From: Alphaproteobacteria bacterium
Lineage (GTDB): Bacteria; Pseudomonadota; Alphaproteobacteria; MPNO01; UBA830
Assembly: GCA_964291215.2 (NCBI GenBank)
Contig: OZ219791.1
Span: 1,792,001-1,856,000 of the forward strand
Direction of reading: 5' to 3'
DNA: 64,000 bases
The notes beneath the pieces are model-generated. The model was not told the DNA's origin. It saw nothing but the letters and a program-made list of their open reading frames with translations, and searched no databases. Position numbers and translations under genes: made by a program. Below, one piece after another: positions 9,517 through 31,810 of this stretch (the first letter of the stretch is position 1; the number at the start of each line of letters is the position of its first letter).

Positions 9517-10419
9517 ATGTCGCGGTTGGGTAGCTTGGATCGTCTGGAATCGGAAAGTATTCATATCATTCGGGAGGTGGCCGCGGAATTTCGCAGTCCC
9601 GTGATGCTGTATTCAATTGGGAAGGATTCGAGCGTCATGCTTCATCTGGCGCTCAAGGCGTTCGCCCCCGGCAGACTTCCGTTTCCGTTGCTGCATATCG
9701 ATACCGGATGGAAATTTCGCGAAATGATCCGGTTCCGAGACGAAACCGCTGCCCGGTTTGGCCTTGATCTCATCGTGCATGTCAACAGGGAAGGCATCGA
9801 GCGCGGTATCGGTCCGATAAGCCACGGTTCCCGGGTTCATACGGAGGTGATGAAGACGGAGGCGCTCAAGCAGGCGCTGGAGGCGTACGGTTTCGACGCA
9901 GCCCTTGGCGGAGCCCGTCGCGATGAGGAGAAATCCCGCGCCAAGGAACGGATATTTTCCTTTCGTAACGAAGCGCATCGCTGGGACCCCAGGAATCAGC
10001 GCCCGGAATTGTGGAATCTCTACAACACGCGCATCCGGCCAGGACAAAGTGTGCGCGTGTTCCCGTTGTCCAATTGGACCGAGCTCGATGTCTGGCAATA
10101 CATCCACCGCGAGGACATTCCGATTGTTCCGCTCTATTTCTCCGCTCGGCGTCCCGTCGTGGCGCGCGACGGCATGCTGATCGTGGTCGATGATGACCGT
10201 CTGCCGGTTGAACCGGCCGAGAAGCCGGTAGAAACCCGTGTGCGTTTCCGCACGCTCGGCTGCTATCCGCTGACGGGCGCGGTCGAGTCCGGAGCAATCA
10301 CGGTTCGGGATATCATCGTGGAACTCATGAAAAGCAGCGAGTCCGAACGAAAAGACCGGGCCGTCGACAACGATCAGGTGGGCTCCATGGAGAAGAAAAA
10401 GCAAGAGGGATACTTCTGA
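9517..10419 (+). CDS. cysD: Sulfate adenylyltransferase subunit 2
   Basis: [56 protein letters not shown]. Confidence 0.95.
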
Positions 10420-12332: not shown

Positions 12333-12545
12333 TGGCCAGTCCCCATCGACTGGTCCAGTGCGAATGTTGGTGCATGGGCGGCTTCTCCGTCAGACTGGCC
12401 GGCGGAGTCGGCCAGTCTGACATGATCGTTTCCGGGACTGAGGGTCGGTATCCCAAGCTGTTGTGCGGACGCACGACGTTGTAGTAGCGGCGCCAGGATT
12501 CGATGAGAGCCCGGGCTTCCTTCAGAGTGGAGAACATCTCTTTGT
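12333..12545 (-). mobile_element. IS3-family 3' fragment
   Basis: EMFSTLKEARALIESWRRYYNVVRPHNSLGYRP and terminal ...TGGCCA. Confidence 0.75.
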
Positions 12546-12780
12546 TCGGGTGTTCGGCTCGGCGGCGCGGGGGACGGACTTCGATCCAGACTTCAGCGAC
12601 GCGGACTTTCTGGTAGAGTTCGATCACAGGAGCGCCCTCGTAACTCTGAACCATTATTTTGACTTCGGGGACGCTTTGCGTGGCACGCTCGGCCGATCTG
12701 GTCGAAATCGGGGCGGTCCACAACCCGTGTCTGCGCGCGACCATCGACCGGTCGCGCAAACCCATCTATGCATTGTGGCG
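12543..12780 (+). pseudogene. Minimal nucleotidyltransferase (MNT) antitoxin, 5'-truncated and frameshifted
   Basis: VFGSAARGTDFDPDFSDADFLVEF (GS...DxD motif). Confidence 0.7.
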
Positions 12781-13124
12781 CTCGCGTACTGCTGGCCGAC
12801 ATTGAGCAGGCCAGTGCGGATATCGCGCACTTCATAGAAGGCGTGAGTCGCGAAGCCGATCTGCAGGACGGGTTGATCCAGGCTACAGTTGGACGCAAGT
12901 TCGAGATTATCGGTGAGGTGCTCAACCGCCTGGATGAAGACCATCGTGAAATTGTCCAACGCATTCAGCGTTTACGCCGAAACGCGGATTTCCGCAGTCT
13001 TCCAAGCCACGGCTACGATCGCGTGACCCCAGAGCGCGTATAGTCCTACGCCAGACACGATCTGCCGGAAATCCTTCGAGTCGTGCAGGTACTACTTACC
13101 GAGTTGGGGCCGCCCGAAGCATGA
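12768..13124 (+). pseudogene. HEPN/DUF86 toxin, internal stop at 13041-13043
   Basis: KFEIIGEVLNRL...FRSLPSHGYD (degenerate Rx4HxY); frame continues past the TAG (SYARHDLPEIL). Confidence 0.7.
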
Positions 13125-15561: not shown

Positions 15562-17347
15562 CACGGCGATCCCACGCCAGGTTTGTTGGAAGGGTCGGTT
15601 TTGCTTGTTCAGGATGATTCGCATTTTCGCTGGCTTTTTGTGAAGCGGCGTAGTATCCGTTGTCGTGGGGGCAGCGGATTTTTTTGAGACGACTCCGGAG
15701 GGTTTTGAGCTCCGGGATGTGGTTGTGCGCCTTGCGCGGCCTGATGTCGCTGGAACCGTGTTGTTGACCGTATCTTGGTTTCAAGCAGTTTGCCGGTCGA
15801 GGTCTGCGTGTTCACCTGGCGCGGGCGGTGGATTGGTGCTGCGGGCTGGCAGACGGGCGCCCTCAGCTGCGCACCCGTTGGATTGGCTGGCGCCGCGAGG
15901 AACAGTTCAGGCGGTTGCCGGGAACAACACGAGGTTTGTTGTTCCTGGTGGTCGTTTCCGGGCCTTGCCTCGTTTGCGTTGTCGCGGATGGTGCGGCGGC
16001 GACTGGGAGGCTGCGTACGGCCATCCGTTGCTTGTTGCGGAGTCGTTTGTCTCGCCGACGAAGTTCAGCGGCACCATGTACAAGGCGGCGAGCTGGGAGT
16101 GCGTTGGCAGGAGCCATGCGCGCGCCAGCGGGCGCCATAGCGACCGGGGAGGCGAAGGCTCTTTACGTGTTTCCGCTGCGTCGTGACGTCGGCTGCGGGA
16201 TCGTTCGCCGCTTGCTGTGGCGTGGGAGTTGCGGGCGCCGCTGGTCGGCGCAGGAGTTGCGCTCGATTTATCAGCGGCGCTTTCCGGCGCGCGCAGGGGC
16301 ACCGCATCGCCTCGGTGCTGTGCGTGATGGCGCGGCTTGCGAACCGGCACGGTTGCGGCGGCGCACTACGCGATGACGCAGAAGGAGCTGGAGCAGCATG
16401 GAAGAACAGGGACAAGCCGGTCTCCACCGTGCACCGGGTGCTGCAGAACACCGACCCGGGATGGATCGAGGATGCGGCGCGCAGCCGCAGGTCGGCAACG
16501 CGGTCGACGGCAAGCGCGGCCGCACCGGCGAGGATCATTACGAGACGGTCTCGCTGGCCGGTATTCGATCCTCAACTATCACGACGGGGAGATCGCTGCC
16601 GTCCACGCCGCGACGGCGCTGGCCGTCTGCTCACCCTCGACGCGCTCCACACCACCCGCGAGGCTGATCATCGAGACCCATCGCGCGGACTGATGGTCAA
16701 GGGCAACGCACCTTCGAGAGAGCATCAACTGGAAGACCGCCAGCGCTACAACGAAAAGCCCGCGCATGGCCGCAGCGCACCATCTTCACCCCGCTGGCGA
16801 AGATGATCAACTAGCAGATCTTCCGCGTCACCCGGCGCGTCGAATTCAAGAAATCCGGAAAACGGACAACCGAATACGCCATGACCTCGGCCGAACGCGC
16901 CTCGCCGCAACAGCTGCTCGCATGGAATCGCGGACACTGGGTAGTCGAGAGCCACCATCATGTCCGCGATGCCACCTTCCGCGAAGACGACTCCATGCTC
17001 CGAACGCGCCCGCAAACAACGCGATCACCCTCGCAATCATCATCCGCAACAAACGCAAGCTGCCCAAACCCTTCAACAGCTTCGTCGACACCACTATGCC
17101 AACAAGCGCAAGCAGGTCCTGCACGCAATCACAAGACCAGGCTGACCGCGCCTCTCTCCCCGACAGAAACTGCAAGCTTTCGAGCCCGGCAACCAAGGCC
17201 TCTCGCTCGCCCCGGATACGCCGACCAATCGCGCCCCGCGCCGTAACAGCACGTCAGCAAATCTCAAAATCGCAGCCTCGAACGCGTCGACCCGCGCCGC
17301 GATCAGGACTCAGATCACATCACATCAACAAGCATGGGATCACCTTG
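15562..17347 (+). mobile_element. ISAs1-family element with N-terminal DUF4338-like domain, degenerate
   Basis: Imperfect IRs CACGGCGATCCCACGC / GCATGGGATCACCTTG; perfect 10-bp TSD CCTCTGTTCC (15552-15561, 17348-17357); pieces AVDGK, LTLDALHT, RGHWVVESHHHVRDATFRED. Confidence 0.85.
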
Positions 17348-17496
17348 CCTCTGTTCCGGACCGGGGCTGTAAACGTACCGGCTTCGCGATATAGTTGCGT
17401 GTGCTGGCCCACCTTTCCCCTTGGCCGGCTGCTGGAAGGCGCGGGGACGGAGTATCGGTCCCGTCTGTGATCGTCGATTTGGCCGGGAGATTGACA

Positions 17497-19695
17497 ATGC
17501 TGCTTTACCACGCATCCAAGGACAGGCCGGCCCATCTCGGTACCTACCCGCTCGAAGTGCTGGATCGGGACGAATCTCTCATTGAGGTCGAAGCAGCCCG
17601 CCCGCGGGTACCGCCGCCGCCCGCCTTCCGCGTTAACGGCGCGCTCGGGGCTGCCGCCGTTGGTTACCGAGATCTGTTCGGCACCTTCATTGCCGGCGGA
17701 CCGGTGGAGCAGGAAGCGCCGGTACCAAGAAGTCTCGACCGCCGGACTGTCGACATCAAGGGCTGCGCATATTTCATGGATGCGGGTCAGGTCGGGATTT
17801 GCCGTATTCCGGACAATGCGTGGCTTGAAGGGGCGGAGCCGATCGACGGACATGGTCATGCGGTGGTGGTGCTGGTCGAGCATGCGCGCCGGCCCGGGCC
17901 GGACAATCTCGCTCACGGCTGGACAGAGGGCGCGGTCGAGGCGTGCGCCGAGATGCGTGTCCTCGAAATCGCTGCCTGCCTGGCCGGCCATATTCGCCAG
18001 ATGGGTTTCGACACCCGGATCCACGTTGCGAGAGACGAGGAGCTCGACCGAGAACGGCTGGCAGTGCTCGGCGGGCTGTGCGTGCGCAGTGGCGACGGTC
18101 TCGTCAATCCTTATGTCGAGGATGGATTCACGCTGGCGGCGATTTCGACCAGCTACGAACTAGCCTGCGATCTCCCGCTGGCCGCAAGCGCCGCCGACGG
18201 GCGCAACAGGGCGTACTGGAAGGGCATCAACGGAGCTACCTCCGGTCGGGAACGCGCCTGCCGCGCAGGGCGGAAAGCCCATCAGAGCCGCTATCCGATG
18301 GAGCAGGTCAAGCGCGTGGACCGGCCGACAACGCTGATCCTCGACGACGAGGTTCCCCGGGTCCCGAAACGCGGCGCGTTCTTTGAGCGCGCGCTGCAGG
18401 GTGACCTCGGAGAGAAATCGAAGCGGGAACGCCGGCGCTTTTCGTTCAAGCACCCGCTTTCGATGAGCCAGCTTCAGGTAATCCGGTCAATGGTGCCGCA
18501 TCAGGACGGCGACACGGCCCGTGATGTCGACCAGACCGCTTATGGCGATCCCGCAGTCAACGCGCGGGCGGTCAAGGCGCTGTCTTACTTCCTCGGCTCG
18601 GATTTGACGGGAATCTGCGAGATTCCGCGTTATGCTTGGCATTCTCACAAGGAAGACGGGCGTCCAATCGAAATGTATCACCGCTATGCCGTCGTGATGC
18701 TGGTCGATCAGGGTTACGACACCATGGAAGGCGCCAGCGGCGACGACTGGATTTCGGGGGCGCAGTCAATGCGCGGTTATCTGCGCGGTGCGGAAATCGC
18801 GGGGGTTATGGGGGAGATGCTGAGAAGCCTCGGCTTTTCTTCCCGCGCGCAGACCAACGCCGACAGCGACGTGCTCCACATTCCGCTCGTTCTCTGGGCC
18901 GGCCTCGGAGAGTTGAGTCGAATCGGGGAGCTGGTTCTCAATCCGTTCGTCGGACCACGTTTCAAGTCGGTAGTGCTGACCACCGACATGCCGCTCGAGA
19001 TCGACAAGCCGATCGACTTCGGCCTTCAGTATTTCTGCAACCACTGCCACAAGTGCGATCGCGAATGCCCTTGTGATGCCATTCCGCACGGCGACAAGGT
19101 TATGTTCAACGGATACGAGATCTGGAAGCCCGATGTCGAGCGTTGCACACGCTACCGGCTCACCAACTCGAAAGGCTCAGCCTGCGGCCGTTGCATGAAG
19201 ACCTGTCCGCTGAACAAGGTCGTTGACATGGACGGCGGGCTTCTGCCGCGCATGGCGAGCTGGATGGGCGTCAACGCCATGTTCCTGAAGCCGGCACTTG
19301 TTCCGGTCGCGACGTGGCTGGACGACAGGCTCGGCAACGGCAAGAGGAACCCGGTCAAGAAATGGTGGTTCGATCACGAAATCGTCGATGGCGTCGCCAT
19401 CAACGCGCGGGCCACGAACGAGCGCGATATCGATCCTTCCAAAAAGGTCGACAAGACCGGTCAGAAGATAGCTTACTATCATGCCGACATGATGCCGGCA
19501 CCGGACCAGCCCGGGCCGTTAATGGTCGACCGCAAGGCGGCGCTCGCGGCCGGCTGCCTGGTCGAAACTCCGGACGAGGCGCGGGCGCGCGCCGCCCGTG
19601 GAGAACCGGCGCCGGCGCATTACATTCCTACCGCACCCGTTGGCGAGAATATGATCGAGGACCGGGTCGCGAGTCCCTACGCCGAGGAGGAATAG
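17497..19695 (+). CDS. rdhA: Cobalamin-dependent reductive dehalogenase, catabolic (non-respiratory) type, with duplicated N-terminal domain
   Basis: AGLGELSRIG...NPFVGPRFKSVVLTTD.PL..DKP; FCNHCHKCDRECP and C-X11-CGRCMKTCP Fe-S motifs; repeated YP(L/M)E segments; no TAT signal or rdhB seen. Confidence 0.9.
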   Translation: MLLYHASKDRPAHLGTYPLEVLDRDESLIEVEAARPRVPPPPAFRVNGALGAAAVGYRDLFGTFIAGGPVEQEAPVPRSLDRRTVDIKGCAYFMDAGQVGICRIPDNAWLEGAEPIDGHGHAVVVLVEHARRPGPDNLAHGWTEGAVEACAEMRVLEIAACLAGHIRQMGFDTRIHVARDEELDRERLAVLGGLCVRSGDGLVNPYVEDGFTLAAISTSYELACDLPLAASAADGRNRAYWKGINGATSGRERACRAGRKAHQSRYPMEQVKRVDRPTTLILDDEVPRVPKRGAFFERALQGDLGEKSKRERRRFSFKHPLSMSQLQVIRSMVPHQDGDTARDVDQTAYGDPAVNARAVKALSYFLGSDLTGICEIPRYAWHSHKEDGRPIEMYHRYAVVMLVDQGYDTMEGASGDDWISGAQSMRGYLRGAEIAGVMGEMLRSLGFSSRAQTNADSDVLHIPLVLWAGLGELSRIGELVLNPFVGPRFKSVVLTTDMPLEIDKPIDFGLQYFCNHCHKCDRECPCDAIPHGDKVMFNGYEIWKPDVERCTRYRLTNSKGSACGRCMKTCPLNKVVDMDGGLLPRMASWMGVNAMFLKPALVPVATWLDDRLGNGKRNPVKKWWFDHEIVDGVAINARATNERDIDPSKKVDKTGQKIAYYHADMMPAPDQPGPLMVDRKAALAAGCLVETPDEARARAARGEPAPAHYIPTAPVGENMIEDRVASPYAEEE

Positions 19696-19977
19696 TGCGG
19701 GTGGCGGCGCAGTTTGCCGCGAAGCGGTCAGATCGCCCGCTTTGCGTCCCGCCGGGCAATGTATGCCGCAGGGCTGACGGCCGTGGCGGCATCCCTCCGC
19801 AACCCTCCCGACCGGGGTCACGGTCGAACCGATGATCCGCGCCCGTCGGCGGCGCCAAGCCGTTGGTGCGGGTGAAAGCGGAGATTTCGGAACGCCGGTT
19901 GCTGGCTGCGAGGCCGTGACACACGCCGCCAGCCTCCGGTCGGCCCCTCGGGAGGCGGACGGAAAAAGACGTTCCGA

Positions 19978-21024
19978 TTACCTGTCGAGCGTGCTCGCGG
20001 CGAAGATCTCTTCGAGTTCCAGCCGATGTGGCGTAAGGCCCTGCTCGTGCGAATAGGCCGCGATCGTCTCCAGCACCTTGCGGTTGGCGGCGATCCCGTG
20101 GCGGACCAGCGGGGTCGCGAGCGTGTCGTCGGCATCGGGCGGCAGCAACCCGGCGTCGATATGGTAGCGGGCGTGCTCCAGTCTCTGCCGGTCGGCAAGC
20201 TGCGCGGCCTCGTCGAATGCCTTGAGGAGGCTCAGCATGACCCACGGGTGCTTTTCCGCGATTTCCCGCTTGACCACCATGCCGTGATTTATCGGATACA
20301 GCCCCGTTTTTTCGAAATAGCGCTTTCCTTCGGCGTACGGGTCGGGAAATAGCGGCCTGAAGTCTGGATGATTGTGAAGATCGGCCGTGCTGCGGTCGAT
20401 CATCGTGCCGCCAGGGATATAGAGAAGCGTGGCATCGAGATCCTCGTCGAGCAACATCTTGCCGATATTGTTCTCCTCGGGGATTCCATGAACGGTCACG
20501 CCTTCCGGCGGCTTGAACCCGGTCGATCCGCCATGGCTGGATTCCGGCGTTCTCTCCATCCAGAATTCCATGTCGCGCGGTGTTACGCCGAACTCGTGCT
20601 CCAGGATGCCGCGGGACCACAGCGCTGCCGTCTGCTGATATTCCGGCACGCCGACGCGCTTGCCCTTGAGGTCCTGCGGCCTCTCGATGCCGGTGGTCTT
20701 GCGGATGAGGATCCAGTTCTGGAAGAAAAACCGGGTCGTGAAGACGGGCAGGCCTACGAAACGATCATCGCCGCGTGCGGTAGCCATCAGCAGCGACGAG
20801 ACGGACATCTCGGCGACATCGAATTCAGCAAACTTGAGCTGGCGCCAGAACAGTTCGGAGGGATGCAGTTCAAGCAGGGTCATATCGATCCCCTCGGCGC
20901 CAACGAAACCGTCGAGGATCGGACGGGTCCGCAGGTTGGGCGTCAGGGCAACGCTCAGGCTCAACCCCCCTCTGGTTTCCTGCCGTCCAGACGCGGCGTC
21001 AGGACCGAGCTGCGGCATTCTCAT
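19978..21024 (-). CDS. 4,5-dihydroxyphthalate decarboxylase-like / periplasmic-binding-fold protein
   Basis: ELFWRQLKFAEFDVAEMS.SS, DLKGKRVGVPEYQQTAALW.RGIL, YPINH, Y.HEQGL. Confidence 0.75.
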   Translation of the reverse strand: MRMPQLGPDAASGRQETRGGLSLSVALTPNLRTRPILDGFVGAEGIDMTLLELHPSELFWRQLKFAEFDVAEMSVSSLLMATARGDDRFVGLPVFTTRFFFQNWILIRKTTGIERPQDLKGKRVGVPEYQQTAALWSRGILEHEFGVTPRDMEFWMERTPESSHGGSTGFKPPEGVTVHGIPEENNIGKMLLDEDLDATLLYIPGGTMIDRSTADLHNHPDFRPLFPDPYAEGKRYFEKTGLYPINHGMVVKREIAEKHPWVMLSLLKAFDEAAQLADRQRLEHARYHIDAGLLPPDADDTLATPLVRHGIAANRKVLETIAAYSHEQGLTPHRLELEEIFAASTLDR

Positions 21025-21084
21025 GCGTATCTCCCTGTGTCGAAGGGCTGTCGGCCTCAATTGCAGCTATGAAGTGGTGGACAA

Positions 21085-21777
21085 TCAGACGGTTGCCACT
21101 GCGACTTCTGCCTCGATCGCCTCCAGCCAGAGCTCGGGATCGAAGCCCTGCGGGCCCGGAGCGCCGTTGAACGTCATCCGTCCTTGCCGGTCGATCACGA
21201 ACAGCCGTATCGGCGCCGAGATGTAGTGGCTCTCAATCTGGTTGTCGATGCCGTCGAGCAGCATCGGCAGGCGGATGTCCTGGTTGACCTGGCAAGCCGA
21301 TGCTATTGCCGCCCGCTCGTCTTCGTTGGACGGCGTCGCGTAGATGATGTCGTCGTAGAGGTTCTGCGGTGTTTGCCAGCCATCGGACGGATGGGCCTCG
21401 CGGATATAAATTAGGAAGAACTCGACATGGTCCTGATGGAGATCGTGAATTTCATTCAGACGCACGGTCTGGTCACGAAACGGCGGTCACGTATAGGAGC
21501 CGAAGGCGAGCGCGACAGGGCGCCCCCTGAGTTTGGATAGTGTGACGAACTCTCCGGTGCGCCGCCGCTGCCGGTCAAGGCGTTCGGCGGTGAAATCCGG
21601 CGCCATGTCGCCGACCGCGGGCACTTGCGGCTCGCGACCCTTCTCGCGCGCCATCATGGTATCGAATTCGTCCTCGATCATGTCCGAGATCTCGAGCCAT
21701 GTCTTCTTGCGTTCTGCGAAGGAAATGTCACGACGGGAAGAGAAATTGCTGAAATGGGCGTATTTCTCGTTGGGCAT
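21085..21777 (-). CDS. Iodothyronine-deiodinase-like selenoprotein (Sec at UGA 21487-21489), 230 aa
   Basis: In-frame join of track ORFs: APDF...RPVALAFGSYT-U-PPF...FLIYIREAHPSDGW; hairpin CAGAC-CGUGC-GUCUG after UGA. Confidence 0.9.
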
Positions 21778-21881
21778 GCAATTGCTCCATCGTCGTTTTC
21801 GCCAAGCCCGGATGCGGTCGCGCCCGAGGAGGAGGCAGGCCGCCTTTCCCTCGGGCGTCGTGATCCGCGGTTCGCTGCCGG

Positions 21882-22349
21882 CTATCGCGACTCGTAGAAA
21901 TTCACCAGCCTGACGACATCGGCGGCTTCGATTCTGCCCAGCGGACCGTCGGCATAACTCGATATCACGACCTTGTTGTCTGGTCCGAGAACGAATTCCG
22001 ACGGCTGGATGATCTGGCGACGGTCTTCCCACCACGAACCGAGAGCGTCGGCAATGTCGCGGGTTACCCCGTAGCCTACGGGAAATCCGACCTCATCGGC
22101 GACTTCGCGGGCTTTGTCGATGGGGTCAACGCTTGCCGCGACTACCGAGGCGCCAAGCTTATCCAATTCAGCCTTCTGTTCCGAGAAACCGACCAACTGT
22201 CGGCGGCAGAACGGTCACCAGTGGCCACGGTAGAACAGAACGATCTTGTATTTGCTGTCGAGACCGCCCGGCAGATCCAGTGTTCCACCGTCGACAAGAT
22301 TTACGGTCACATCCGGAAAGGACGCGCCAATACCAAGTTTCTCCGACAT
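21882..22349 (-). CDS. Peroxiredoxin-like (AhpC/TSA fold) selenoprotein (Sec at UGA 22215-22217), 155 aa
   Basis: ATG 22349 with AAGGAG SD; LFYRGHW-U-PFCRRQL (UxxC); hairpin GCCGAC-AGUUG-GUCGGU after UGA. Confidence 0.9.
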
Positions 22350-22508
22350 GTGCACTCCTTGATTGGGAACCCGGCGACCCTACCCGCGCACTGCCACTAA
22401 TGCAAACCGCTCTGACGGCCGGGCGGCTTTGAATCTGCGCGGAAAAACGCCTGTCGCCCTGCTTCCCGAAAGGTCCTTCCGCGCGGTGTTGGCGACGGCG
22501 GGGCCCGT

Positions 22509-23639
22509 TCAGGAGGCGGCCGCAGTCGCTTCGACATCCATCTTGGCGTTTCCGAAAGCACCGATACCAAGCGCGTCGCGAAGGTCGGCCGTCTGTTCCG
22601 CCTTCCAGTCCTCGAGCGGAGCGCCGGTCGCGTCGGCAATCCTGTCGATGGCATTGAACAGGCCTACCACACCGGCCGAATCGACCAGCGCGTCGCTCCC
22701 GAGGGCGTCGACAATCGCAATCCGCGCGGCGTCAAGCCGGCTTTCGTCGGTGTCGAGCACGGCCTCGGCAAACTCGATCAACAGGTTGCCGTGGGGTATA
22801 CCGGTATCACCGGCCGCAACGCCGTCCATGATCGCCTGGTAGTCCAGTTCTGAACCAGCATGTTCTGCGCTCGCACGGAGCACTGCCACATGGCTGGTGG
22901 TTCAGTACGTACACTGGTTCAGCGCCGAGACCCTTGCCGCCAGAAGCTCGATCTGCGCGTGGGTGATGGCGCGGAACTCGCGCGTGAAATCGCGCATCTC
23001 GGAGCCCGCCAGGTACTGGGCGGCAACGACGGCGAAGAAGCTCCGCGCCTCGTCCGGGACCAGGGTAAGTGCCCGCCGTATATTGGCCTCCGGCCCGACA
23101 AAGTAGTCCGCTTCATTGGGCCCGTGCTCGTTCCACGCGATATTCGGCGCCCATGCCTGGTGCTGGCGCGCCTCCTTCGGGCGATATCGCGACGGCTCTC
23201 CGCCGCCCGGTTCGGGCAGCGTCCGCAACGGAATTCCGAGTCCTCTGGCGAAGGTGTCGATCGCCGTGGTGTGGGCCACGACGCTGACAATTTCGACGAA
23301 TTCGGTGTCGGCAATGCCGCTCGCAAGCGTGCGTTCGTACCAGCCATGGGTAAGACGGCCGGGGTCGGCCACGATCAGGTGAATCATGTCGACGCGGTTC
23401 GCAGCAAGCTCGCCCAAGCTGTCATGGACACCGCGCACTGCGAAGGGCGACAGCGCCGCCCTGATCTCCGCGCAGAACGCGCACCCGCGCGCATGCCGTG
23501 TTTCCGCCATGATCTGCACGCGTTCTTCGTCCGTGAGCCATGTTCCGGCCTTCGAGAGCCGGTCCCAGGCCTGTCGGTGGGCGTCGGCAAGGTCACCGCG
23601 TACCGGGTGCGGCGAACCCGCGTAATCCAATGTTGTCAT
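22509..23639 (-). CDS. AhpD/CMD-like selenoprotein (Sec at UGA 22902-22904), 376 aa
   Basis: ELLAARVSALNQCTY-U-TTSH (CxxUxxxH) joins two track ORFs in frame; extra CAFC motif; hairpin GUGCUC-CGUGC-GAGCGC after UGA. Confidence 0.85.
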
Positions 23640-23736
23640 TGCTCCGTCCCTGCTGTTCCGGATCCTGTCCGGGCCATCATGCAACGCCGGGTACCATCCA
23701 TCAAGCCCGAAATCCCGACCGCGGCCGACGGGCCGA

Positions 23737-24468
23737 TCATCCCGCTCGCGACGACATCACGAGTGCCAGCAGATTGGCGGCGTAGTCGGAGGCCTTGTCG
23801 GTTTCCATCAGGCGCGCGTTGGCGAGGTAGGTCTTGCAGGTGACAAGCGCCGTCCGGTCGCGTCCGGACAGCGTCTCCAAAACGACCTCGGTCGCGTCGC
23901 GCAACTGGTTGGCGGGAACGACATCGCTCACGAAACCAGCCTCGCGCGCCCTTGCGGCGTCGATCTCGCGGGTGGAATAGACCATCCATGCCGCCGCCTT
24001 TGGTTGGGTTCGGTCCATATGGGCGGAAATTGCCGCCGTCGGCGGCAGATTGTTCTTCATTTCGGGAAGCGAGAAGGTGGAATCGTCAGCCGCGATCGTG
24101 ATGTCACACACCGCTGCGGCCGCACAGCCAAAACCCGCCGCCCGGCCCTGCACCGACGCGACCACGGGAATCTCCGCGCCGCGCACTGCCTCGTAGAACC
24201 CGATGATCGGCGCAGCCAGGGCTCCGCGCATTTCGACGCCCGTCTTCGGCGTATGCTCGGGTGCGCTCTCGGGATCGCGCCCGAGGCAGAAATCGGGACC
24301 GGCAGTGCGAATCGAGATCGCATGAAGTGCGTTGTCCCGGCCAAGATCGGCGACTGTCGAGGACAACTCGTCCAGCATGTCCAGCGTCAGCATGTTGCCG
24401 CGTTCGGCGCGATAGATCGATATGCGCGCGATCTTGTCGTCTCTCGTGATGCTCAGGGTGTCGGTCAA
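23737..24468 (-). CDS. Enoyl-CoA hydratase/isomerase family protein
   Basis: DFCLGRD, PVVASVQGRAAGFG, CDITIAADD.TFSLPE; TTG start with GAGGAG SD. Confidence 0.85.
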   Translation of the reverse strand: MTDTLSITRDDKIARISIYRAERGNMLTLDMLDELSSTVADLGRDNALHAISIRTAGPDFCLGRDPESAPEHTPKTGVEMRGALAAPIIGFYEAVRGAEIPVVASVQGRAAGFGCAAAAVCDITIAADDSTFSLPEMKNNLPPTAAISAHMDRTQPKAAAWMVYSTREIDAARAREAGFVSDVVPANQLRDATEVVLETLSGRDRTALVTCKTYLANARLMETDKASDYAANLLALVMSSRAG

Positions 24469-24651
24469 TTTCGTTCTCCTCTCACCGGCTGTAACAAGTC
24501 GCGCCGTTCCTGTCGGTATCCGCATGAAACTCCTGAAGGAGAACAACCTGCCAGTATCCGTGCCGAGCGGCGACGCTGCTGGAATTCTGCCTGTGCCGGC
24601 TGTTGCGGACGTGCGACTGGCGGGTAAGCGTTTCCTGACGCCTTCAGCAGA

Positions 24652-24747
24652 TGGCGGAAAAGAGTGGGAGTCGAACCCACCAGGGACGTCTCACGCCCCT
24701 CACCGGTTTTGAAGACCGGGCGCCCCACCGGGGAACGATTCTCTTCC
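24652..24747 (-). tRNA. selC: tRNA-Sec (anticodon UCA)
   Basis: GGAAGA...CCGGT-CTTCAAA-ACCGG, long variable arm, GGTTCGACTCC T-arm, 3' GCCA; 96 nt; directly after selB. Confidence 0.97.
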
Positions 24748-24770
24748 GTGGCCCGAAACTAACCCAGAAA

Positions 24771-26696
24771 TCAGTCTTCGCCAAAGGCGTCGGCCACCGG
24801 GCGGATGACTTCGTGGGCGTCGCCGACGCGGCGTGTGAACTTGATCTTGTCGAAGAATTCGAGGACCTCGATGGCCAGGTTGCGCCCGATATTGGACGCA
24901 TCGCGAAATGCGGCGGCCGAGACCATCCCGCGTTCGTTGTCTGCGGCGACCTCCTCCGCGATTGCGCCGAGCCGGCGAAGCGTCTCGGGCAGGAAAAACC
25001 GGTTCTTGGAGATGCGGACGACAAGCCCGTGGCGCGCTGTCCGGACAAGCAGGGATCCCACCTTGCGCGAATCGCCCCCCATGTCGTGCACGATGTCGCT
25101 GAGCGGTGGTGGTCGGAGGCCGGCGGCGCTCAGGATCGTCCTGACCCTTTCCCAGTCTCTGACGTCATTGCCCTCAAGCCGCGGGCGGTGGGACGGAAGG
25201 CGCACGCCCATTCCTTCCCTGACGACATCGCCGTCGCGTGCAAGCTTCGCGCTGATCGCGGACGCGGCGTCCGCGGGCAACCGGATTCCGGTGTCAATCA
25301 GTATCCGGTTTTCGCCCGGACCGACCGTGTCCGGGGACTTTCGGTGCCAGGCAGCCAAGCGCTCGGTTACCGCCTCGCGGACGCGGCCCCATCCGGTCTC
25401 AGAAAACCCCAGCCTGCCCGTCTCGGTGGCGATCGTCACCATCTGAATTGCAGCCTCCAGCGACACCGTCTCCTCCGCGGTCAGATTGCGGGCCGCGGCA
25501 AATCGATCGAGATTGAGGCCGCTTGATGCCGCTTCGAGAAGGCCTTCGAGGGCCGCGGCATGTTCGGCGGAATCCATGATCTCCAGGAACTCCAGCCGTT
25601 CCCGCCGCGCGCGGCCGCGTGTCGGGGGATACACGTCGATGACGCGCCCGCCGCCGATCGTGCGTCGCGCCGACTGGTCGCGGATGATGAGGCCGTCGCC
25701 GCACACCGCGCCGACGGGATGATCGAGAACCAGTTGCGCCAGTGCGGTATCGCCGGGCGCGATGCCGTTCCGACCGAGCACGGCGACCCTGCCGGTGGTT
25801 TCGCTGGCGCCGATATGGGCATGGATCGGGGTCCAGTGGGCGAGGGACCGTTTTTCCGTGCCGAGCACGCTGAGCCGCATGTCGATCTTGCGAACCGCCG
25901 GAGGGACGTCTCCGGCCACGATCCAGTCGCCGCGCGCGATGCGATCCTTTCTGAGTGCGGCGCCGGCGAGATTGAGCGCGCAGCGTTGTCCGGCCCGGCC
26001 GGACGGCGCCTGGGCGTTCTGGGCGTGGATGCCGCGAATGCGCACCTCCACGCCGGCGCCTAGCACTCGCGCTTTTTCGCCGGTTGCGATGGCACCGGAA
26101 AACGCGGTTCCGGTGACCACCAGCCCGGCACCGACGACCTCGAAACTGCGGTCGACAGCGAGCCGGAAGTTGCCGTCGGCCGGTCGCGGCGGCGTGGCCC
26201 GGGCAGCCTCGACGAGGTGGGACTTCAGTTCCGGAACGCCTGAACCTGTAATCGCCGACACCGGAAACACCGCGATGCCTTCGAGAGCCGTGCCGGCGAG
26301 CAGTATCTCGATCTCCTCGAGAGCGTCATCCACCCGTTCCGGGGGCACGCGATCGATCTTGGTCAGCGCGACCGCGCCGCGGTTCACGCCGAGGAGGTCG
26401 AGAATCGCCAGATGCTCCTCGGTCTGCGGCATCGGACCGTCGTCTGCCGCCACGATCAGGAGAACGAAGTCGATTCCTGTCACGCCGCAGAGCATGTTGC
26501 GAATGAAGCGCTCATGTCCCGGAACGTCGATGAATCCGACGGTTTCGGCCCCGTCGAGCGGCAGGTACGCGAAGCCCAGATCTATGGTCAGGCTCCGCTT
26601 CTTCTCCTCGGGCAGGCGATCGGTATCGACGCCGGTCAGCGCCTTGATCAGGAGAGTCTTGCCATGATCCACATGCCCGGCCGTGGCGATGATCAC
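24771..26696 (-). CDS. selB: Selenocysteine-specific elongation factor
   Basis: IIATAGHVDHGKT, TDRLPEEKKR..TIDLGF, DVPGHERF, C-terminal winged helix GRNLAIEVLEFFD; GTG overlaps selA stop. Confidence 0.95.
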   Translation of the reverse strand: MIIATAGHVDHGKTLLIKALTGVDTDRLPEEKKRSLTIDLGFAYLPLDGAETVGFIDVPGHERFIRNMLCGVTGIDFVLLIVAADDGPMPQTEEHLAILDLLGVNRGAVALTKIDRVPPERVDDALEEIEILLAGTALEGIAVFPVSAITGSGVPELKSHLVEAARATPPRPADGNFRLAVDRSFEVVGAGLVVTGTAFSGAIATGEKARVLGAGVEVRIRGIHAQNAQAPSGRAGQRCALNLAGAALRKDRIARGDWIVAGDVPPAVRKIDMRLSVLGTEKRSLAHWTPIHAHIGASETTGRVAVLGRNGIAPGDTALAQLVLDHPVGAVCGDGLIIRDQSARRTIGGGRVIDVYPPTRGRARRERLEFLEIMDSAEHAAALEGLLEAASSGLNLDRFAAARNLTAEETVSLEAAIQMVTIATETGRLGFSETGWGRVREAVTERLAAWHRKSPDTVGPGENRILIDTGIRLPADAASAISAKLARDGDVVREGMGVRLPSHRPRLEGNDVRDWERVRTILSAAGLRPPPLSDIVHDMGGDSRKVGSLLVRTARHGLVVRISKNRFFLPETLRRLGAIAEEVAADNERGMVSAAAFRDASNIGRNLAIEVLEFFDKIKFTRRVGDAHEVIRPVADAFGED

Positions 26697-28102
26697 GGCT
26701 TCGTCTCCAGCCGCGCAAGTTGCGCCGCGAACGCGGCCTCGTCCTCGAGGCAGCGGAGGTCGAGCACGAATTCGTCGTTCCGTATCCGCCCGATGACCGG
26801 TACCGGCAGCTCGCGAAAAGCCGCAGCCAAGCGGCGGAGCGCGGAGCTGCGGCCGCGTTTTCCGGTTGTTGGCGAAATCGCAAGGCCAAGGCTGGGCACG
26901 CGCTGTTGCGGCAGCGCTCCCGAGCCGAACTGGCTCTGGCACTCCGTCACGGCGACATCAGCGCGGCCGGACAGGGCGGACGCAACCAGCGGCACCAGCC
27001 GATCGGCCAAACCGCCAAGCTCCTCGACCGGGCGCGCCAGCGCACGCAGGGTCGGCAGGCGTGCCGCGAGACGATCCGGATCGGCGTAGAGGCGAAGCGT
27101 TGCTGCGAGAGCGGCGATGGTCATCTTGTCGCAGCGCAGTGCACGTTTCATGGGGTTTCTGCGGATCTTGGCAAGCATCTCCTTCGAGCCGACGATCAGT
27201 CCGCATTGCGGTCCACCGAGAAGCTTGTCGCCGGAGAAGGTCACCACGTCGACACCCTGTTCGAGCGCCTTCGTCGGCGTGGGTTCGCGGGGCAGGCCGA
27301 ACTGCGCGAGATCGATCAGGGCGCCGCTTCCGAGGTCGGTTGCAAACGGTATTCCGGAGCGATGACAGAGTTCGGCCAGTGGTTCTTCGGGCACGCTTGC
27401 GGTGAAGCCCTCGACCACATAGTTGCTGGTGTGAACCTTCATGACGAGCCCGGTCCTGGGTCCGATCGCTGCTGCATAGTCGTCAAGATGGGTCCGGTTG
27501 GTGGTGCCGACTTCGACCAGCCGACAGCCGGCGCGAGCCATGATTTGCGGCATGCGAAAGGATCCGCCGATCTCGATAAGTTCGCCGCGCGACACCGGGA
27601 CCTCGCGACGGAGCGCAAGGCTGTTGAGAACCAGCATCACGGCCGCCGCGTTGTTGTTGACGATCGTGGCCGCTTCGGCTCCGGTGATGCGGCAGAGTTC
27701 GTCCTCGATATGCTCGTCGCGGTCGCCGCGCTTTCCCTTGTCGATCCGGTATTCGAGATTGCTGGCGCCGCGTGCTGCTGCTGCAACGGCCTCGACGGCT
27801 TCCTCGGCCAGCGCGGCGCGGCCGAGATTGGTGTGGAGAACCGTGCCGGTGAGGTTGAAGACGGGACGCAGCGACGGTACGGCGCGTTCCCGCAGGCTCT
27901 CCTCGACCTGGCGCAGGAGCGTCGCCTGGACCGGGGCCTTGCTGCCGGGTTCTGCCAGCGCGGTTCGCCACGCCCCGAGCACGTCGCGCACCGCCCGGGT
28001 GGTTTCCTGGCGTCCGAACTCTCCGACTAGTGTGTGCCCCAGGGCAAGAAGTCTGTCGACAGACGGCAGCGCCGCCATTGGTGATGGAGGATCATCTGGC
28101 AT
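26693..28102 (-). CDS. selA: L-seryl-tRNA(Sec) selenium transferase (start uncertain, 28078-28123)
   Basis: FNLTGTVLHTNLGRA, VNNNAAAV, SRGELIEIGGSFR, EVGTTNRT, FSGDKLLGGPQ. Confidence 0.95.
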   Translation of the reverse strand: MPDDPPSPMAALPSVDRLLALGHTLVGEFGRQETTRAVRDVLGAWRTALAEPGSKAPVQATLLRQVEESLRERAVPSLRPVFNLTGTVLHTNLGRAALAEEAVEAVAAAARGASNLEYRIDKGKRGDRDEHIEDELCRITGAEAATIVNNNAAAVMLVLNSLALRREVPVSRGELIEIGGSFRMPQIMARAGCRLVEVGTTNRTHLDDYAAAIGPRTGLVMKVHTSNYVVEGFTASVPEEPLAELCHRSGIPFATDLGSGALIDLAQFGLPREPTPTKALEQGVDVVTFSGDKLLGGPQCGLIVGSKEMLAKIRRNPMKRALRCDKMTIAALAATLRLYADPDRLAARLPTLRALARPVEELGGLADRLVPLVASALSGRADVAVTECQSQFGSGALPQQRVPSLGLAISPTTGKRGRSSALRRLAAAFRELPVPVIGRIRNDEFVLDLRCLEDEAAFAAQLARLETKP

Positions 28103-28406
28103 GCCGTCAGGATAGACCCTCATGACAGGAACGGGAATACAACTCGCTTCCGCGCACCGGCACGTATCTCGGCGGCGACGAGCAGAATGCCGGAAGCAGC
28201 GCGCGCCGAGACTCGGGTCGCGGAAACGATGCGTTGATGCGCCGCGGCGACTCCTGGCATCTGTTCAGTCGGGCATGGTGGATCCTAGTGGAGGGATATA
28301 AGAATTTAGCCGGAACTTCGCGGAGGGTTCAGAAGGTTTTCGACTGACGTTGGCCTCTTTCGGATGTGTCGGAAGGTGCAGGATATCCCAACTTGGAGCA
28401 TATAGA

Positions 28407-29115
28407 CCCCACTTCCAGTCTGAAGTGCAACACCCGGCCCTCATCGCAGTGAGGGCGTAGCCCGAACGGAGAGGGCCGGGTGTTACGCAAATTTTTCCCC
28501 TCTGCCCCTCTCGATTCCGCCTAGGAACAGCTTCAGTTCCTTCAACATCGAGCTTATGCAACGCCTTTGTCGGCTTCAAGCCACTATTACGCCGTCGCGC
28601 GGCATGGATCCTGCTGCACGTTGCGGCTTTGGAACGCAGATGGTCAGGGCGGTTTCACTTCAAGATTACCTCCGTCGGCGATCCCAGGACTTTCCGAGTG
28701 TTGAGCCGCACCTTCTGAACATCTTCGTTGCATGTCGCGCGAAAGTCCGTGCCCTTCGGGAAGTACTCCCGCACCAGGCCGTTGGTGTGCTCATTCAAGC
28801 CGCGCTCCCAGGAATGGAAAGGCGAAGAAGAAATCTGCGTCAAGTGCGACACGCCTGTGGTCTGCGAACTCCTTGCCGTTGTGATTGTGTGGACCAATAG
28901 CGCACCAGAGCCGAGCAGGCGGATCATGACCGAACCGACCGTGTCTTTCTGTCCACCCAGCAAGGTGTATTTCGTGGCACGAGCGACACGACAGCTCCAC
29001 TGTGAGCTTTGCCGATGATGGCTCCCAGTCGCCGATCCGTTCCTTTGCCTCCGCAGGGCGCTCGGAAATGTCCACTCGGCCAGGAATATGGCCCCGGCCA
29101 GAATGGCATCCGCCC
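28407..29115 (-). mobile_element. IS30-family element, degenerate partial copy
   Basis: Terminal CCCCACTTCCAGTCTGAAGTGCAACAC; SWERGLNEHTNGLVREYFPKGTDF. Confidence 0.85.
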
Positions 29116-30576
29116 AAATCACACCCCGGCACTGGCCGCATGAGATGAACAAATGGTACTGAGCCTGCAACTGTGCCATACGAAACTCTCACCCTGTTCA
29201 TCAGGGCAACCAAAACCCACAGCACCGCAGACGGCAAACCCGTCCACCGGCTCGTGCTTTCTCAACGCATCGGCCGACAAGGTCAGGCAGCGCACGCTGC
29301 CTCGGCACCAACTATCCGGTGGCGCGCAAGAACTGGAAGGAGGTTGCCGCCGAAGCGCTGGCCGCCCGCCGCTGTTCGAAGCCGCGTGCAGGCCGCAGCC
29401 GAGGACATCGTCAACAGGGGCCCGGAGGTTCCGCGCCGACGCTCCGGAGGAAGACGCACGCAAATTGCGACCGTCAACCTCGACAGCCTCGAGAACCCGC
29501 GCTCGGTCGGCTGGCCTGTACCTCGAGGCGCGGTCTCGGCTTCACGACCTCGGCATCACGGGCCGCGAGTGCGCTGATCGTCGCTAGGATGATCCGCCAG
29601 CGAGCGCTGGCTGCGCGATGACAGCGTGACCGCGGAGCTTCGATCTGGAGGGCAAGGCGCGCAAGACGCTGTACCGCATCGGCGACCTGCGTCACCGGAC
29701 CGCCATCCGGAAAGAACTGTTCAACCACGAGCGCGCGCTGCATCCCCGACACCATCGCCTTTTACGACCTCACCAATGTTCACGGCCGCGCCGACGGCAA
29801 GCTGCCCCGCTTCGGGCGCTCGAAGCGCAATGATTGCCCCACGCTTGCGCGGCGCGGGCTTTCGGCGCAGTTGCGAGGTCTTGCGGGGCAACGTGAGCGA
29901 ACCCGGTACGCTGGAGGACGCGCTGTCGAGGCTGGAGGCGGCCCGGCGGCGAAGCCGACGGCAGTCATGGACGCCGGCACCGAGGCGAACATCGCGTGGC
30001 GAGCACGGCTGGATCGCGGGCGGCGCCGCCCGAGGGTGGGCCCGAGGCTGATCACCAACCACGAGGTGCAGGCGCCTTGCCAGCAAGGATGGCGCGGCTC
30101 TACGTGGTCAGCGAGAGCAGGAAGAGGGCGAGGACGCCATTCCTGACCGCAGGGCTTCGAGGCGGCAAAGCTCCACCTCCAAGGGCCGGCGCCACGACAA
30201 GGTGCTGGAGAGCGGTCTCAGGCAGCGCTTCTCCACCGTCGTCCGGCACTACGAGATCACCGTCGAGAAGGCCGGCGCCAACGCAACGGCCGTGCGCTTC
30301 AGCCACAGACGACAAGACAACGCGGGCGCCTGCGCACCAGCGACCGGGATATCGAGACCGTCCTCAGGACATGGATCACGGATATCGAGGCCACCTTCCG
30401 TTCATTGAAATCCGAGCTCGGATTGCGCCCGGCCAGCGCATCGCCGCCCACCTGTTGATCGCCGTGCTCGCCGCGGTGCATCTGATCCCCGCGCGGGGCA
30501 TCGACAAGTGCCGGACATCAATCCGCGAGAGCATGCGGAACCAGGGTCACCACGCGCCTGCGCGCATTTTTTGATC

Positions 30577-31806: not shown

Positions 31807-31810
31807 ATTG

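What the first reader, a model, noticed from the sequence alone, without database searches (positions are those of the whole stretch)
21085..21777. Bacterial iodothyronine-deiodinase-like selenoprotein
Readthrough gives FGSYT-U-PPF and YIREAHPSDGW, closely matching the eukaryotic deiodinase signatures (FGSxT-U-PPF, YIxEAHxSDGW). It has a charged N-terminus instead of a membrane anchor. Bacterial members are known from computational selenoproteome surveys, but to my knowledge their substrates are unresolved. Lying about 1.4 kb from rdhA gives a functional clue.
Basis: partly seen in the sequence, partly recalled or inferred. Interest (0 to 1): 0.7.

Follow-up and report, generated by a model that had tools for sequence, protein, structure and literature searches.

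The report
Bacterial deiodinase-like selenoprotein, optional operon member
This is a real gene for a predicted selenium-containing bacterial relative of the animal thyroid-hormone deiodinases, a family predicted since 2005 whose substrate is still untested; it sits near a dehalogenase gene in only one bacterial lineage and is often missing there, so that neighbour is a weak clue.

Summary
Observation confirmed. The minus-strand ORF 21777-21085 reads through TGA97 into a 230-aa PF00837 protein (85.9 bits, cut-off 27). TGA is kept in 156 of 160 homologous loci, a SECIS stem covaries, selA/selB/tRNA-Sec/selD are present, and the top structural matches are mouse Dio2 and Dio3. It is the third of three selenoprotein genes (AhpD-like CxxU, Prx-like UxxC, this). 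It keeps the deiodinase catalytic core but lacks the membrane anchor, His219, Cys168/Cys239 and the Arg275/Glu259 clamp, so it is not a thyroid-hormone deiodinase. The rdhA clue is weak but not empty: the NpRdhA-like neighbour lies in an aromatic-catabolism block, but the adjacency is one clade in one family, 7 of 13 such blocks lack this gene, and 1 of 75 other genome loci has an RdhA-like neighbour. All 22 of 22 relatives carrying it do encode an NpRdhA-like enzyme somewhere (11 of 19 without). New lead: 21 of 89 long homologs are fused to AhpD-like domains, pointing to the upstream AhpD-like selenoprotein as reductant. This scan found the family before on other DNA. New member of a known kind; interest 0.33.

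The parts
21085..21777 (-). Deiodinase-like selenoprotein gene, 230 aa, Sec97; Trx/Prx fold with the deiodinase omega-loop insertion; soluble helical N-terminus
   Evidence: (pLDDT 96.4)
21487..21489 (-). In-frame UGA (Sec97), aligned to Sec170 of mouse Dio3 and to Cys in natural homologs such as P0006
   Evidence: 156 of 160 TGA
21449..21481 (-). Predicted bacterial SECIS: stem CAGAC/GUCUG with apical loop CGUGC starting 20 nt after the UGA
   Evidence: five stem pairs kept in 96-100 of 101 homologs, with compensatory changes
21882..22349 (-). Prx-like (AhpC/TSA) selenoprotein gene, HW-U-PFC (UxxC), UGA at 22217-22215
   Evidence: (PF00578 70.3 bits)
22509..23639 (-). AhpD-related CxxU selenoprotein gene (NF041238), CTY-U-T, UGA at 22904-22902; candidate reductant
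   Evidence: (457 bits, cut-off 175)
23737..24483 (-). Enoyl-CoA hydratase family gene (start approximate); in this position only here and in the nearest relative
24652..24747 (-). tRNA-Sec (selC)
   Evidence: RF01852 75.6 bits
24771..26696 (-). selB (start approximate)
   Evidence: TIGR00475 342 bits on a part of the ORF
26693..28123 (-). selA
   Evidence: TIGR00474 565 bits
19978..21018 (-). 4,5-dihydroxyphthalate decarboxylase-like gene (NMT1/SBP fold), 66 bp downstream, same strand
   Evidence: (9jp7 E 3.1e-55)
17395..19695 (+). NpRdhA-like catabolic reductive dehalogenase, convergent; keeps Y462/K524/R588/S458 (NpRdhA Y426/K488/R552/S422); true start probably about 35 codons inside the ORF
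   Evidence: (4ras E 4.6e-195)

Best explanation
The gene encodes a predicted soluble selenoenzyme of the prokaryotic deiodinase-like family that likely removes iodine or bromine from a small halogenated phenol by deiodinase-type chemistry and would be recycled by the AhpD-like selenoprotein two genes upstream. Shown: the in-frame UGA, the covarying SECIS-like stem, the Sec machinery, the deiodinase fold and core residues, and the place as an optional third gene of a selenoprotein row. Inferred: (1) SelB/tRNA-Sec insert Sec97. (2) The selenolate halogen-bonds to and abstracts X+ from a phenol held by His129 (Dio3 His202), with Thr96/Ser94/Glu127/Tyr124 anchoring the loop and passing the proton, and water standing in for the missing His219. 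(3) Without Arg275/Glu259 and the anchor, the substrate is not a thyroid hormone. (4) The oxidised Sec is re-reduced through the conserved bacterial Cys162 and/or the AhpD-like CxxU protein. The nearness to rdhA is inherited synteny of one family's chromosome block, in which selenoprotein genes and selAB lie beside an aromatic-catabolism cluster; RdhA does not need this gene.
For: Fold: AlphaFold model pLDDT 96.4. Foldseek ranks Dio2 9h48 and Dio3 4tr3 first (E 4.9e-13, 1.2e-12); VIA gives Z 20.4 and 19.4 over 174 and 171 residues, rmsd 2.9 and 2.6, while ResA-type proteins align about 135 residues. Residues, mapped and counted in 109 homologs: S167 109/109, T169 108, Y197 108, E200 109, H202 109, W207 104, R225 109, R260 107. 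Their roles come from passages of PMC12025243, PMC7506546 and PMC9141512; human DIO1 H174A (= His219) stays active. Cys162 is kept in 108 of 109. Reductant: 21 of 89 long homologs carry an AhpD-like domain; whole Cys forms have CxxC (P0222, P0239, P0242 DIO-AhpD; P0207, P0256 the reverse order), and 12 end at C-F/Y-Y as if cut at a UGA. AhpD restores oxidised peroxidases (PMC10460364, abstract start only). Context: Prx-like gene beside 19 and selA beside 16 of 80 GTDB loci. Dispensable for RdhA: 7 of 13 blocks lack it, though all 7 genomes have selA.
Against: No activity is shown for this protein, and I found none in print for a bacterial member. The authors who found the family suggested a general redox role (PMC1088965). 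The VIA Z for the deiodinases (20.4, 19.4) is about tied with ResA-type thioredoxins (19.1) and near AhpE (18.5). The conserved Y/E/H/W may only anchor the loop (PMC7506546). AhpD partners are typical of peroxide reductases. The fusions belong to another branch (NF038285-type, motif GN[FY]TCGP). Their AhpD part has no significant pairwise BLAST match to the window's AhpD-like protein and only a weak profile match (E 0.0015 among 11 sequences; P0242 hits NF041238 at E 1.4e-6). Other fusions (TPR, EF-hand, hydrolases) and varied neighbourhoods name no halogenated substrate. The distance from Cys162 to Sec97 could not be measured. An AhpD-like CxxU homolog lies beside only 3 of 80 GTDB loci.
Confidence: 0.4

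Rival explanations
1. The protein is a general selenol oxidoreductase (peroxide, hypohalous acid or disulfide reductase) working with the Prx-like and AhpD-like selenoproteins in oxidative-stress defence, and does no carbon-halogen chemistry.
For: It sits with two redox selenoproteins and selAB. It is fused to AhpD-like domains in relatives. Its fold is close to ResA, AhpE and Bcp, with a PF00578 AhpC-TSA hit of 33.4 bits. It has lost the iodothyronine clamp. PMC1088965 and PMC13188914 read such proteins and clusters as redox-related.
Against: The deiodinase-specific insertion and its E/H/W/R residues are nearly invariant, which a plain peroxidase does not need. The Pro of the PxxxTxxC motif (recalled) is absent (Leu90). 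A Prx-like selenoprotein is already next door and is the more constant gene of the block.
Confidence: 0.38
2. The protein is a dedicated partner of the B12 dehalogenase in one halo-aromatic catabolic pathway, for example stripping iodine where RdhA strips bromine or chlorine, upstream of the decarboxylase and LigAB ring cleavage.
For: It is co-oriented 66 bp upstream of a 4,5-dihydroxyphthalate decarboxylase-like gene. The family block holds RdhA, CHMI, FAA hydrolase, LigAB, a glyoxalase-family gene and aldolase II. The RdhA keeps the halophenol-binding residues. The adjacency holds across two genera at about 73% identity. All 22 of 22 DIO-bearing relatives have an NpRdhA-like gene, against 11 of 19 others; so do 28 of 50 further DIO-bearing genomes, against 18 of 200 in the class. 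A second, separate adjacency to a short RdhA-like gene exists (L054; G025 at 11 kb).
Against: One clade, so one event. It is absent from 7 of 13 blocks, and in 6 of those genomes PF00837 is not found at all (77-98% complete). Only 1 of 75 other GTDB loci has any RdhA-like gene. In the class sample 17 of 18 RdhA genomes lack a PF00837 match over the cut-off, and the one strong UGA form (G170) has no NpRdhA-like gene. Only 1 of the 19 genomes with the more distant DIOs has one. No RdhA match among 89 long homologs. selA itself lies 12-28 kb from this rdhA in 9 relatives, which explains the neighbourhood. Kin are not independent: 4 of the 8 double-negative relatives are one genus.
Confidence: 0.15
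3. The UGA is a true stop: a pseudogene, or two short ORFs as gene callers annotate it.
For: Databases hold mostly the 126-130 aa C-terminal half. The SECIS region alone folds no better than shuffles (z 0.82 and -0.09).
Against: TGA in 156 of 160 loci at the catalytic position. Cys in natural full-length homologs. Stem covariation at silent codon positions. The same CGUGC loop follows the UGA of two other selenoprotein-like genes of this genome. The Sec machinery is complete.
Confidence: 0.02

Closest known systems
Prokaryotic deiodinase-like selenoproteins (PF00837; Zhang, Fomenko and Gladyshev 2005, PMC1088965; listed in PMC2398784, PMC9312934, PMC13188914)
   Same: PF00837 domain, in-frame UGA aligned to Cys homologs, bacterial SECIS, mostly marine alphaproteobacterial hosts among the named relatives, function predicted only.
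   Different: The 2022 and 2026 review tables give a UxxC motif for their example, while this protein has UPPF like animal enzymes (the 2008 table gives no motif). I found neither the AhpD-Prx-DIO row beside rdhA nor the DIO-AhpD fusions in the passages read; the Prx-like/AhpD-like pairing itself is reported.
Mouse iodothyronine deiodinases Dio2 and Dio3 (PDB 9H48, 4TR3/4TR4)
   Same: Trx/Prx fold with omega-loop; S167, T169, U170, P171-P172, Y197, E200, H202, W207, R225, R260, G276-P277 kept; top sequence and structure matches.
   Different: No transmembrane anchor; C168 is Tyr, H219 is Pro (or Thr by the HMMER alignment), C239 is Leu; R275, E259, D211 and R176 are not kept; it has a bacterial Cys162 and Arg101 instead; bacterial SECIS inside the ORF.
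NCBIfam NF038285 deiodinase_rel (347-position model)
   Same: The C-terminal domain matches (160 bits, E 9.8e-47); members of that branch carry the AhpD-like fusions.
   Different: Below the cut-off of 250; lacks the roughly 160-position N-terminal part; motif GSYTUPP rather than GN[FY]TCGP.
NpRdhA, catabolic reductive dehalogenase of Nitratireductor pacificus (PDB 4RAS, 6ZXU; PMC7565698) - for the neighbour
   Same: Full-length match (E 4.6e-195); Y426, K488, R552, S422 and M423 equivalents kept.
   Different: A419 is Gly; substrate untested; the passages read mention no selenoprotein partner.

Membership tests
Prokaryotic deiodinase-like selenoprotein (PF00837) | PF00837 match above the gathering score, spanning the UGA | tested here: met
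   85.9 bits against 27, residues 56-215
Prokaryotic deiodinase-like selenoprotein (PF00837) | Conserved in-frame UGA aligned to Cys/Sec of homologs | tested here: met
   (156 of 160 TGA, 2 Cys)
Prokaryotic deiodinase-like selenoprotein (PF00837) | Bacterial SECIS just 3' of the UGA (small apical loop with G) | tested here: met
   91 of 101 homologs fold such a loop; 68 share CGUGC at 20 nt; no shuffle control for this count; covariation; folding energy alone is not significant
Prokaryotic deiodinase-like selenoprotein (PF00837) | Host has selA, selB, selC, selD | tested here: met
Prokaryotic deiodinase-like selenoprotein (PF00837) | Sec actually incorporated | not testable with these tools
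   needs 75Se labelling or mass spectrometry
Animal iodothyronine deiodinase (DIO1-3) | Trx fold with omega-loop; S-x-T-U core; Tyr197/Glu200/His202/Trp207 | tested here: met
Animal iodothyronine deiodinase (DIO1-3) | N-terminal membrane anchor | tested here: not met
   best hydropathy 0.81; 20 of the first 52 residues charged
Animal iodothyronine deiodinase (DIO1-3) | His219 of the proton relay; distal Cys239 (all isoenzymes) and proximal Cys168 (DIO1, DIO3) | tested here: not met
   Pro149 (109 of 109) or Thr148; Leu170; Tyr95. By sequence alignment; residue-level structural alignment was not available
Animal iodothyronine deiodinase (DIO1-3) | Arg275 (Lys in Dio2) and Glu259 for the amino-acid end of the hormone | tested here: not met
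   Pro207 and Ile190; both columns variable among homologs
Animal iodothyronine deiodinase (DIO1-3) | Deiodination of T4, T3 or rT3 | not testable with these tools
   needs an enzyme assay
Animal iodothyronine deiodinase (DIO1-3) | Homodimer | not tested
   no complex prediction was run
NCBIfam NF038285 deiodinase_rel | Score at or above 250 bits over the 347-position model | tested here: not met
   160.1 bits, profile positions 162-334 only
Peroxiredoxin | PxxxT/SxxC motif (recalled) | tested here: not met
   L90...S94-Y-T-U97; Ser present, Pro absent
Peroxiredoxin | Catalytic Arg facing the peroxidatic residue (recalled) | tested here: inconclusive
   Arg191 (107 of 109) and Arg101 (109 of 109) are conserved, but model coordinates could not be inspected
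Hypothetical deiodinase-RdhA dehalogenation module | Adjacency repeated across independent lineages | tested here: not met
   one clade, plus one separate short-RdhA case in 75 other loci
Hypothetical deiodinase-RdhA dehalogenation module | Genes kept or lost together | tested here: not met
   7 of 13 blocks keep rdhA, and their genomes selA, without this gene
Hypothetical deiodinase-RdhA dehalogenation module | Genome-level co-occurrence | tested here: inconclusive
   22 of 22 against 11 of 19 in relatives; 28 of 50; overlap 1 in the class sample; not corrected for kinship

The most novel reading that the evidence does not exclude
In this marine alphaproteobacterial family a selenium deiodinase, recycled by an AhpD-like selenoprotein, and a B12 reductive dehalogenase feed the same halo-aromatic catabolic cluster (decarboxylase, LigAB, CHMI, FAA hydrolase). 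It would be the first bacterial selenol dehalogenase with a defined substrate and reductant, and a model for the ancestral chemistry of animal deiodinases.
Probability: 0.15. Interest if true: 0.8.

Novelty: new member of a known kind. Interest (0 to 1): 0.33.

Why it matters
The family has been predicted for twenty years with no substrate found in my searches. This member is soluble, models with high confidence, has natural Cys homologs for easy expression, and comes with two concrete leads. One is an AhpD-like reductant, supported by fusions in both orders in another branch. The other is a halophenol substrate class, suggested by the retained His/Glu core, the lost amino-acid clamp and the neighbouring catabolic block. 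A positive assay would show Se-based aromatic dehalogenation in bacteria and bear on the origin of thyroid-hormone deiodinases and on marine iodine and bromine cycling. As a discovery it is ordinary: another routinely split member of a listed family.

Tried and rejected
rdhA adjacency as a conserved module: rejected as lineage-limited and optional. SECIS by folding energy alone: not significant; only covariation supports it. Pairwise BLAST of fusion AhpD domains against the window's AhpD-like protein: no significant match. RdhA-like part in long homologs: none among 89. Promoter and terminator scan of 19600-28400: 0 promoter-like and 4 terminator-like sites, against 1.2 and 5.9 in shuffles, so uninformative on co-transcription. 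Sequencing runs: no RNA holder listed. Further hidden selenoproteins among 11 recurrent neighbour clusters: none recognised in up to 6 members each; several clusters were off-strand ORFs. The ESM Atlas look-alike search was not obtained, so language-model neighbours are unknown. No complex prediction was run. Haft and Tolstoy 2025 (PMC12013261) is not held and may discuss these neighbourhoods or fusions. No supplements were read. DNA of the fusion proteins was not available, so their C-F-Y ends being UGA truncations is inferred. The MarR query in my tblastn scripts was off-frame and its hits were not used. L085 was labelled as in the RdhA block in the tree although its contig is too short to show it (6 of the 7 rows are shown in the block).

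Full report
Observation. The region 21085-21777 holds a minus-strand ORF from ATG 21777 with one internal TGA at codon 97. Pfam PF00837 scores 85.9 bits (cut-off 27) over residues 56-215. phmmer finds mouse Dio3 (4tr3, E 2.6e-17) and Dio2 (9h48, E 1e-14), with codon 97 on the catalytic Sec position. There is no membrane anchor: the best 19-residue hydropathy is 0.81, 20 of the first 52 residues are charged, and 2 of 109 aligned homologs have a hydrophobic N-terminal stretch. It is the only PF00837 match in this 99% complete genome.

Is the UGA selenocysteine? Of 160 homologous loci (the best 80 of 432 in GTDB and the best 80 of at least 531 in metagenomes), 156 have TGA at this codon, 2 have Cys, 1 TAA and 1 TGG. 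Against eight chosen homologs the protein is conserved, with many synonymous differences, on both sides of the UGA. A hairpin CAGAC-CGUGC-GUCUG has its loop 20 nt after the UGA. Its folding energy alone does not beat shuffles (z 0.82 and -0.09). However, 91 of 101 non-redundant TGA homologs fold a small G-containing loop there, 68 with the same loop at the same distance, and the five stem pairs are kept in 96-100 of 101. At the pair joining the first base of codon 104 to the silent third base of Arg106 the types are G-C 70, A-U 13, U-A 8, G-U 6, U-G 3; the pair at codons 103/107 behaves likewise. These are counts of sequences, not independent events. The same loop follows the UGA of the AhpD-like gene upstream and of a DsbA-like gene on the other contig (that scan gave 14 hits, about 10 of them apparently chance). 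selA, selB and tRNA-Sec are in the window and selD is elsewhere. I put Sec insertion at about 0.97; it remains a prediction.

Local anatomy. On the minus strand the order is selA, selB, selC, an enoyl-CoA hydratase, an AhpD-related CxxU selenoprotein (NF041238, 457 bits), a Prx-like UxxC selenoprotein, this gene, and a 4,5-dihydroxyphthalate decarboxylase-like gene (9jp7, E 3e-55). Gaps among the last four are 159, 104 and 66 bp. Facing them is an NpRdhA-like enzyme (4ras, E 4.6e-195), 1390 bp from this gene. By my numbering of the alignment it keeps the equivalents of Y426, K488, R552 and S422, which PMC7565698 (passages) names as proton donor and phenol binders.

Is the rdhA neighbour a clue? 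In the 80 GTDB loci, an NpRdhA-like gene faces the DIO gene in 5, all at 73-95% identity to the query. Of the other 75 (894 kb; 32 with at least 5 kb on both sides) one has a short RdhA-like gene (L054), while a Prx-like gene occurs in 19 and selA in 16 of 80. On a FastTree of 109 proteins the block-associated DIOs are one starred clade (one of its 7 rows is too short to show the block). I fetched 19 rdhA regions and one DIO region from relatives. In the window's family the block is [CoxMSL-like, amidohydrolase], AhpD-U, Prx-U, optional DIO, [thiolase, glyoxalase, aldolase II], decarboxylase-like, facing ketopantoate reductase-like, rdhA, CHMI, then FAA hydrolase and LigAB. Among 13 family genomes where the spot is visible, 6 have the DIO gene (G000, G001, G003, G004, G016, G019) and 7 do not (G002, G006, G007, G011, G012, G021, G022); G005, G015 and G024 were set aside because contigs end there. 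All 7 have selA. Six have no PF00837 match at all (77-98% complete) and G021 has two copies elsewhere. In 9 relatives from two families selA lies 12-28 kb from this rdhA, so the neighbourhood is an old block in which selenium genes and rdhA happen to be linked. In this genome the LigAB/FAA half lies about 67 kb away. Against my reading: all 22 of 22 PF00837-positive genomes among 41 relatives have an NpRdhA-like gene (E below 1e-100), against 11 of 19 negatives. So do 28 of 50 further DIO-bearing genomes (50 of the 80 were searched): 27 of the first 31 in rank order but 1 of the last 19. In 200 other genomes of the class, 18 have the RdhA, 4 have PF00837 over the cut-off, and 1 has both, with a weak UGA-less form. 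The co-occurrence therefore follows lineage and is not corrected for kinship.

Active site. The AlphaFold model from 109 sequences has pLDDT 96.4. Dio2 and Dio3 rank first by Foldseek and by VIA (Z 20.4, rmsd 2.9, 174 aligned; Z 19.4, rmsd 2.6, 171 aligned). ResA-type proteins follow closely (Z 19.1, 137 aligned). Mapping mouse Dio3 numbers from the alignment and counting in 109 homologs: kept are S167 (109), T169 (108), Y197 (108), E200 (109), H202 (109), W207 (104), R225 (109) and R260 (107). Not kept are C168 (Tyr/Phe/Trp), H219 (Pro 109), C239, R275, E259, D211 and R176. Passages of PMC12025243, PMC7506546 and PMC9141512 assign Sec to halogen bonding, His202 to the phenol, S/T/E/Y/H219 to proton relay or loop anchoring, Arg275/Glu259 to the amino-acid end, and Cys168/239 to resolution; human DIO1 H174A stays active. 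So the halogen-abstraction core is present, while hormone recognition and the animal recycling route are not. Cys162, the only Cys, is kept in 108 of 109 and is my candidate resolving residue (inference; distance not measured).

Reductant lead. Searches for longer homologs (34 hits) and of cluster representatives (3353 at E up to 1e-10, best 150 listed) gave 89 proteins of 330 aa or more. A profile built from six of them finds an AhpD-like domain in 21, those six included. P0222, P0239 and P0242 are whole DIO-AhpD fusions with CxxC, P0207 and P0256 have the reverse order, and 12 stop at C-F/Y-Y, as expected if cut at a CxxU codon. AhpD proteins restore oxidised peroxidases (PMC10460364, abstract start in the listing only). 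The fusions belong to the NF038285 branch and are only distantly related to the window's AhpD-like protein, so this is a family-level hint. None of the 89 matches the RdhA.

What is known. PMC1088965 (passages) reported Sec and Cys deiodinase-like proteins in the Sargasso Sea data in 2005 and suggested a redox function other than hormone metabolism. PMC2398784 (passages) counted 22 in the GOS data. PMC9312934 and PMC13188914 (passages; sections 8 and 9 of the latter) list the family; the 2026 review names it among selenoproteins identified almost entirely by bioinformatics and notes Prx-like/AhpD-like clustering. Searches showed no biochemical study of a bacterial member and no link to RdhA. 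Haft and Tolstoy 2025 was not held, the 2014 Dio3 structure paper was seen only through the papers above, and no supplements were read. Earlier notes of this scan describe the same family in other genomes, two of them beside RdhA-like genes and judged lineage-limited; these are unchecked AI notes and not evidence.

Verdict. It works like a deiodinase catalytic domain and is a member of the prokaryotic deiodinase-like selenoprotein family. It is not a member of animal DIO1-3 or of NF038285 by the tests above. Most likely mechanism (0.40): Sec-based reductive dehalogenation of a small iodo- or bromophenol, with AhpD-like recycling, independent of RdhA. Close rival (0.38): a general peroxide, hypohalite or disulfide reductase. 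Dedicated partner of RdhA: 0.15. True stop: 0.02. New member of a known kind; interest 0.33, or 0.8 if the joint selenium/B12 pathway were true.

Noticed in passing
P0222, P0239, P0242, P0207, P0256, P0177, P0140-P0151: Natural fusions of the deiodinase-like domain with AhpD-like domains, in both orders; 12 end at C-F/Y-Y, and 7 of these lack the part before the DIO Sec position, suggesting double selenoproteins. Not seen in the review passages read.
   Followed up: partly
window 22509-23639 and 21882-22349 (-): Two further UGA-split selenoprotein genes (NF041238 AhpD-related CxxU; Prx-like UxxC), each with a SECIS-like hairpin. The Prx-like gene is a more constant neighbour of rdhA in this family than the deiodinase-like gene.
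   Followed up: yes
G000:C1:1608989 (+): Probable DsbA-like selenoprotein (family name recalled; FTDYV-U-PWC) with the same CGUGC loop 20 nt after its TGA, 2.4 kb from a paralog of the decarboxylase-like gene.
   Followed up: no
L194-L204, L211: Family-wide block joining an NpRdhA-like enzyme with ketopantoate reductase-like, CHMI, FAA hydrolase, LigAB and a dihydroxyphthalate decarboxylase-like gene: a candidate halo-hydroxybenzoate catabolic cluster. In another family of the order the rdhA follows a CoxL-like molybdoenzyme gene (L207-L210).
   Followed up: partly
G000:C2:2813030-2814301 and C2:2425197-2425739: Two more RdhA-like genes in this genome, a roughly 485-aa frame at 52% and a roughly 400-aa frame at 33% identity.
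   Followed up: no
L054:1805-2887; L213:2005-2742: A short RdhA-like gene directly upstream of a DIO gene (L054) and 11 kb from its sister DIO in G025: a second, separate adjacency.
   Followed up: partly
window 12463-13043 (+): Nucleotidyltransferase plus HepT-like ribonuclease pair, like an MNT-HEPN toxin-antitoxin module.
   Followed up: no
window 9508-12329 (+): cysD and fused cysN-cysC (sulfate/selenate activation) about 9 kb from the selenoprotein row.
   Followed up: no
window 15600-17300 and 28200-33400: Stretches that look by eye like broken transposase genes, upstream of rdhA and of selA; two fragments gave no Pfam hit. They may mark the rearrangement that moved LigAB/FAA about 67 kb away.
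   Followed up: no
G040, G018: Some relatives carry three or four UGA-type deiodinase-like paralogs, two of them adjacent in G040.
   Followed up: no
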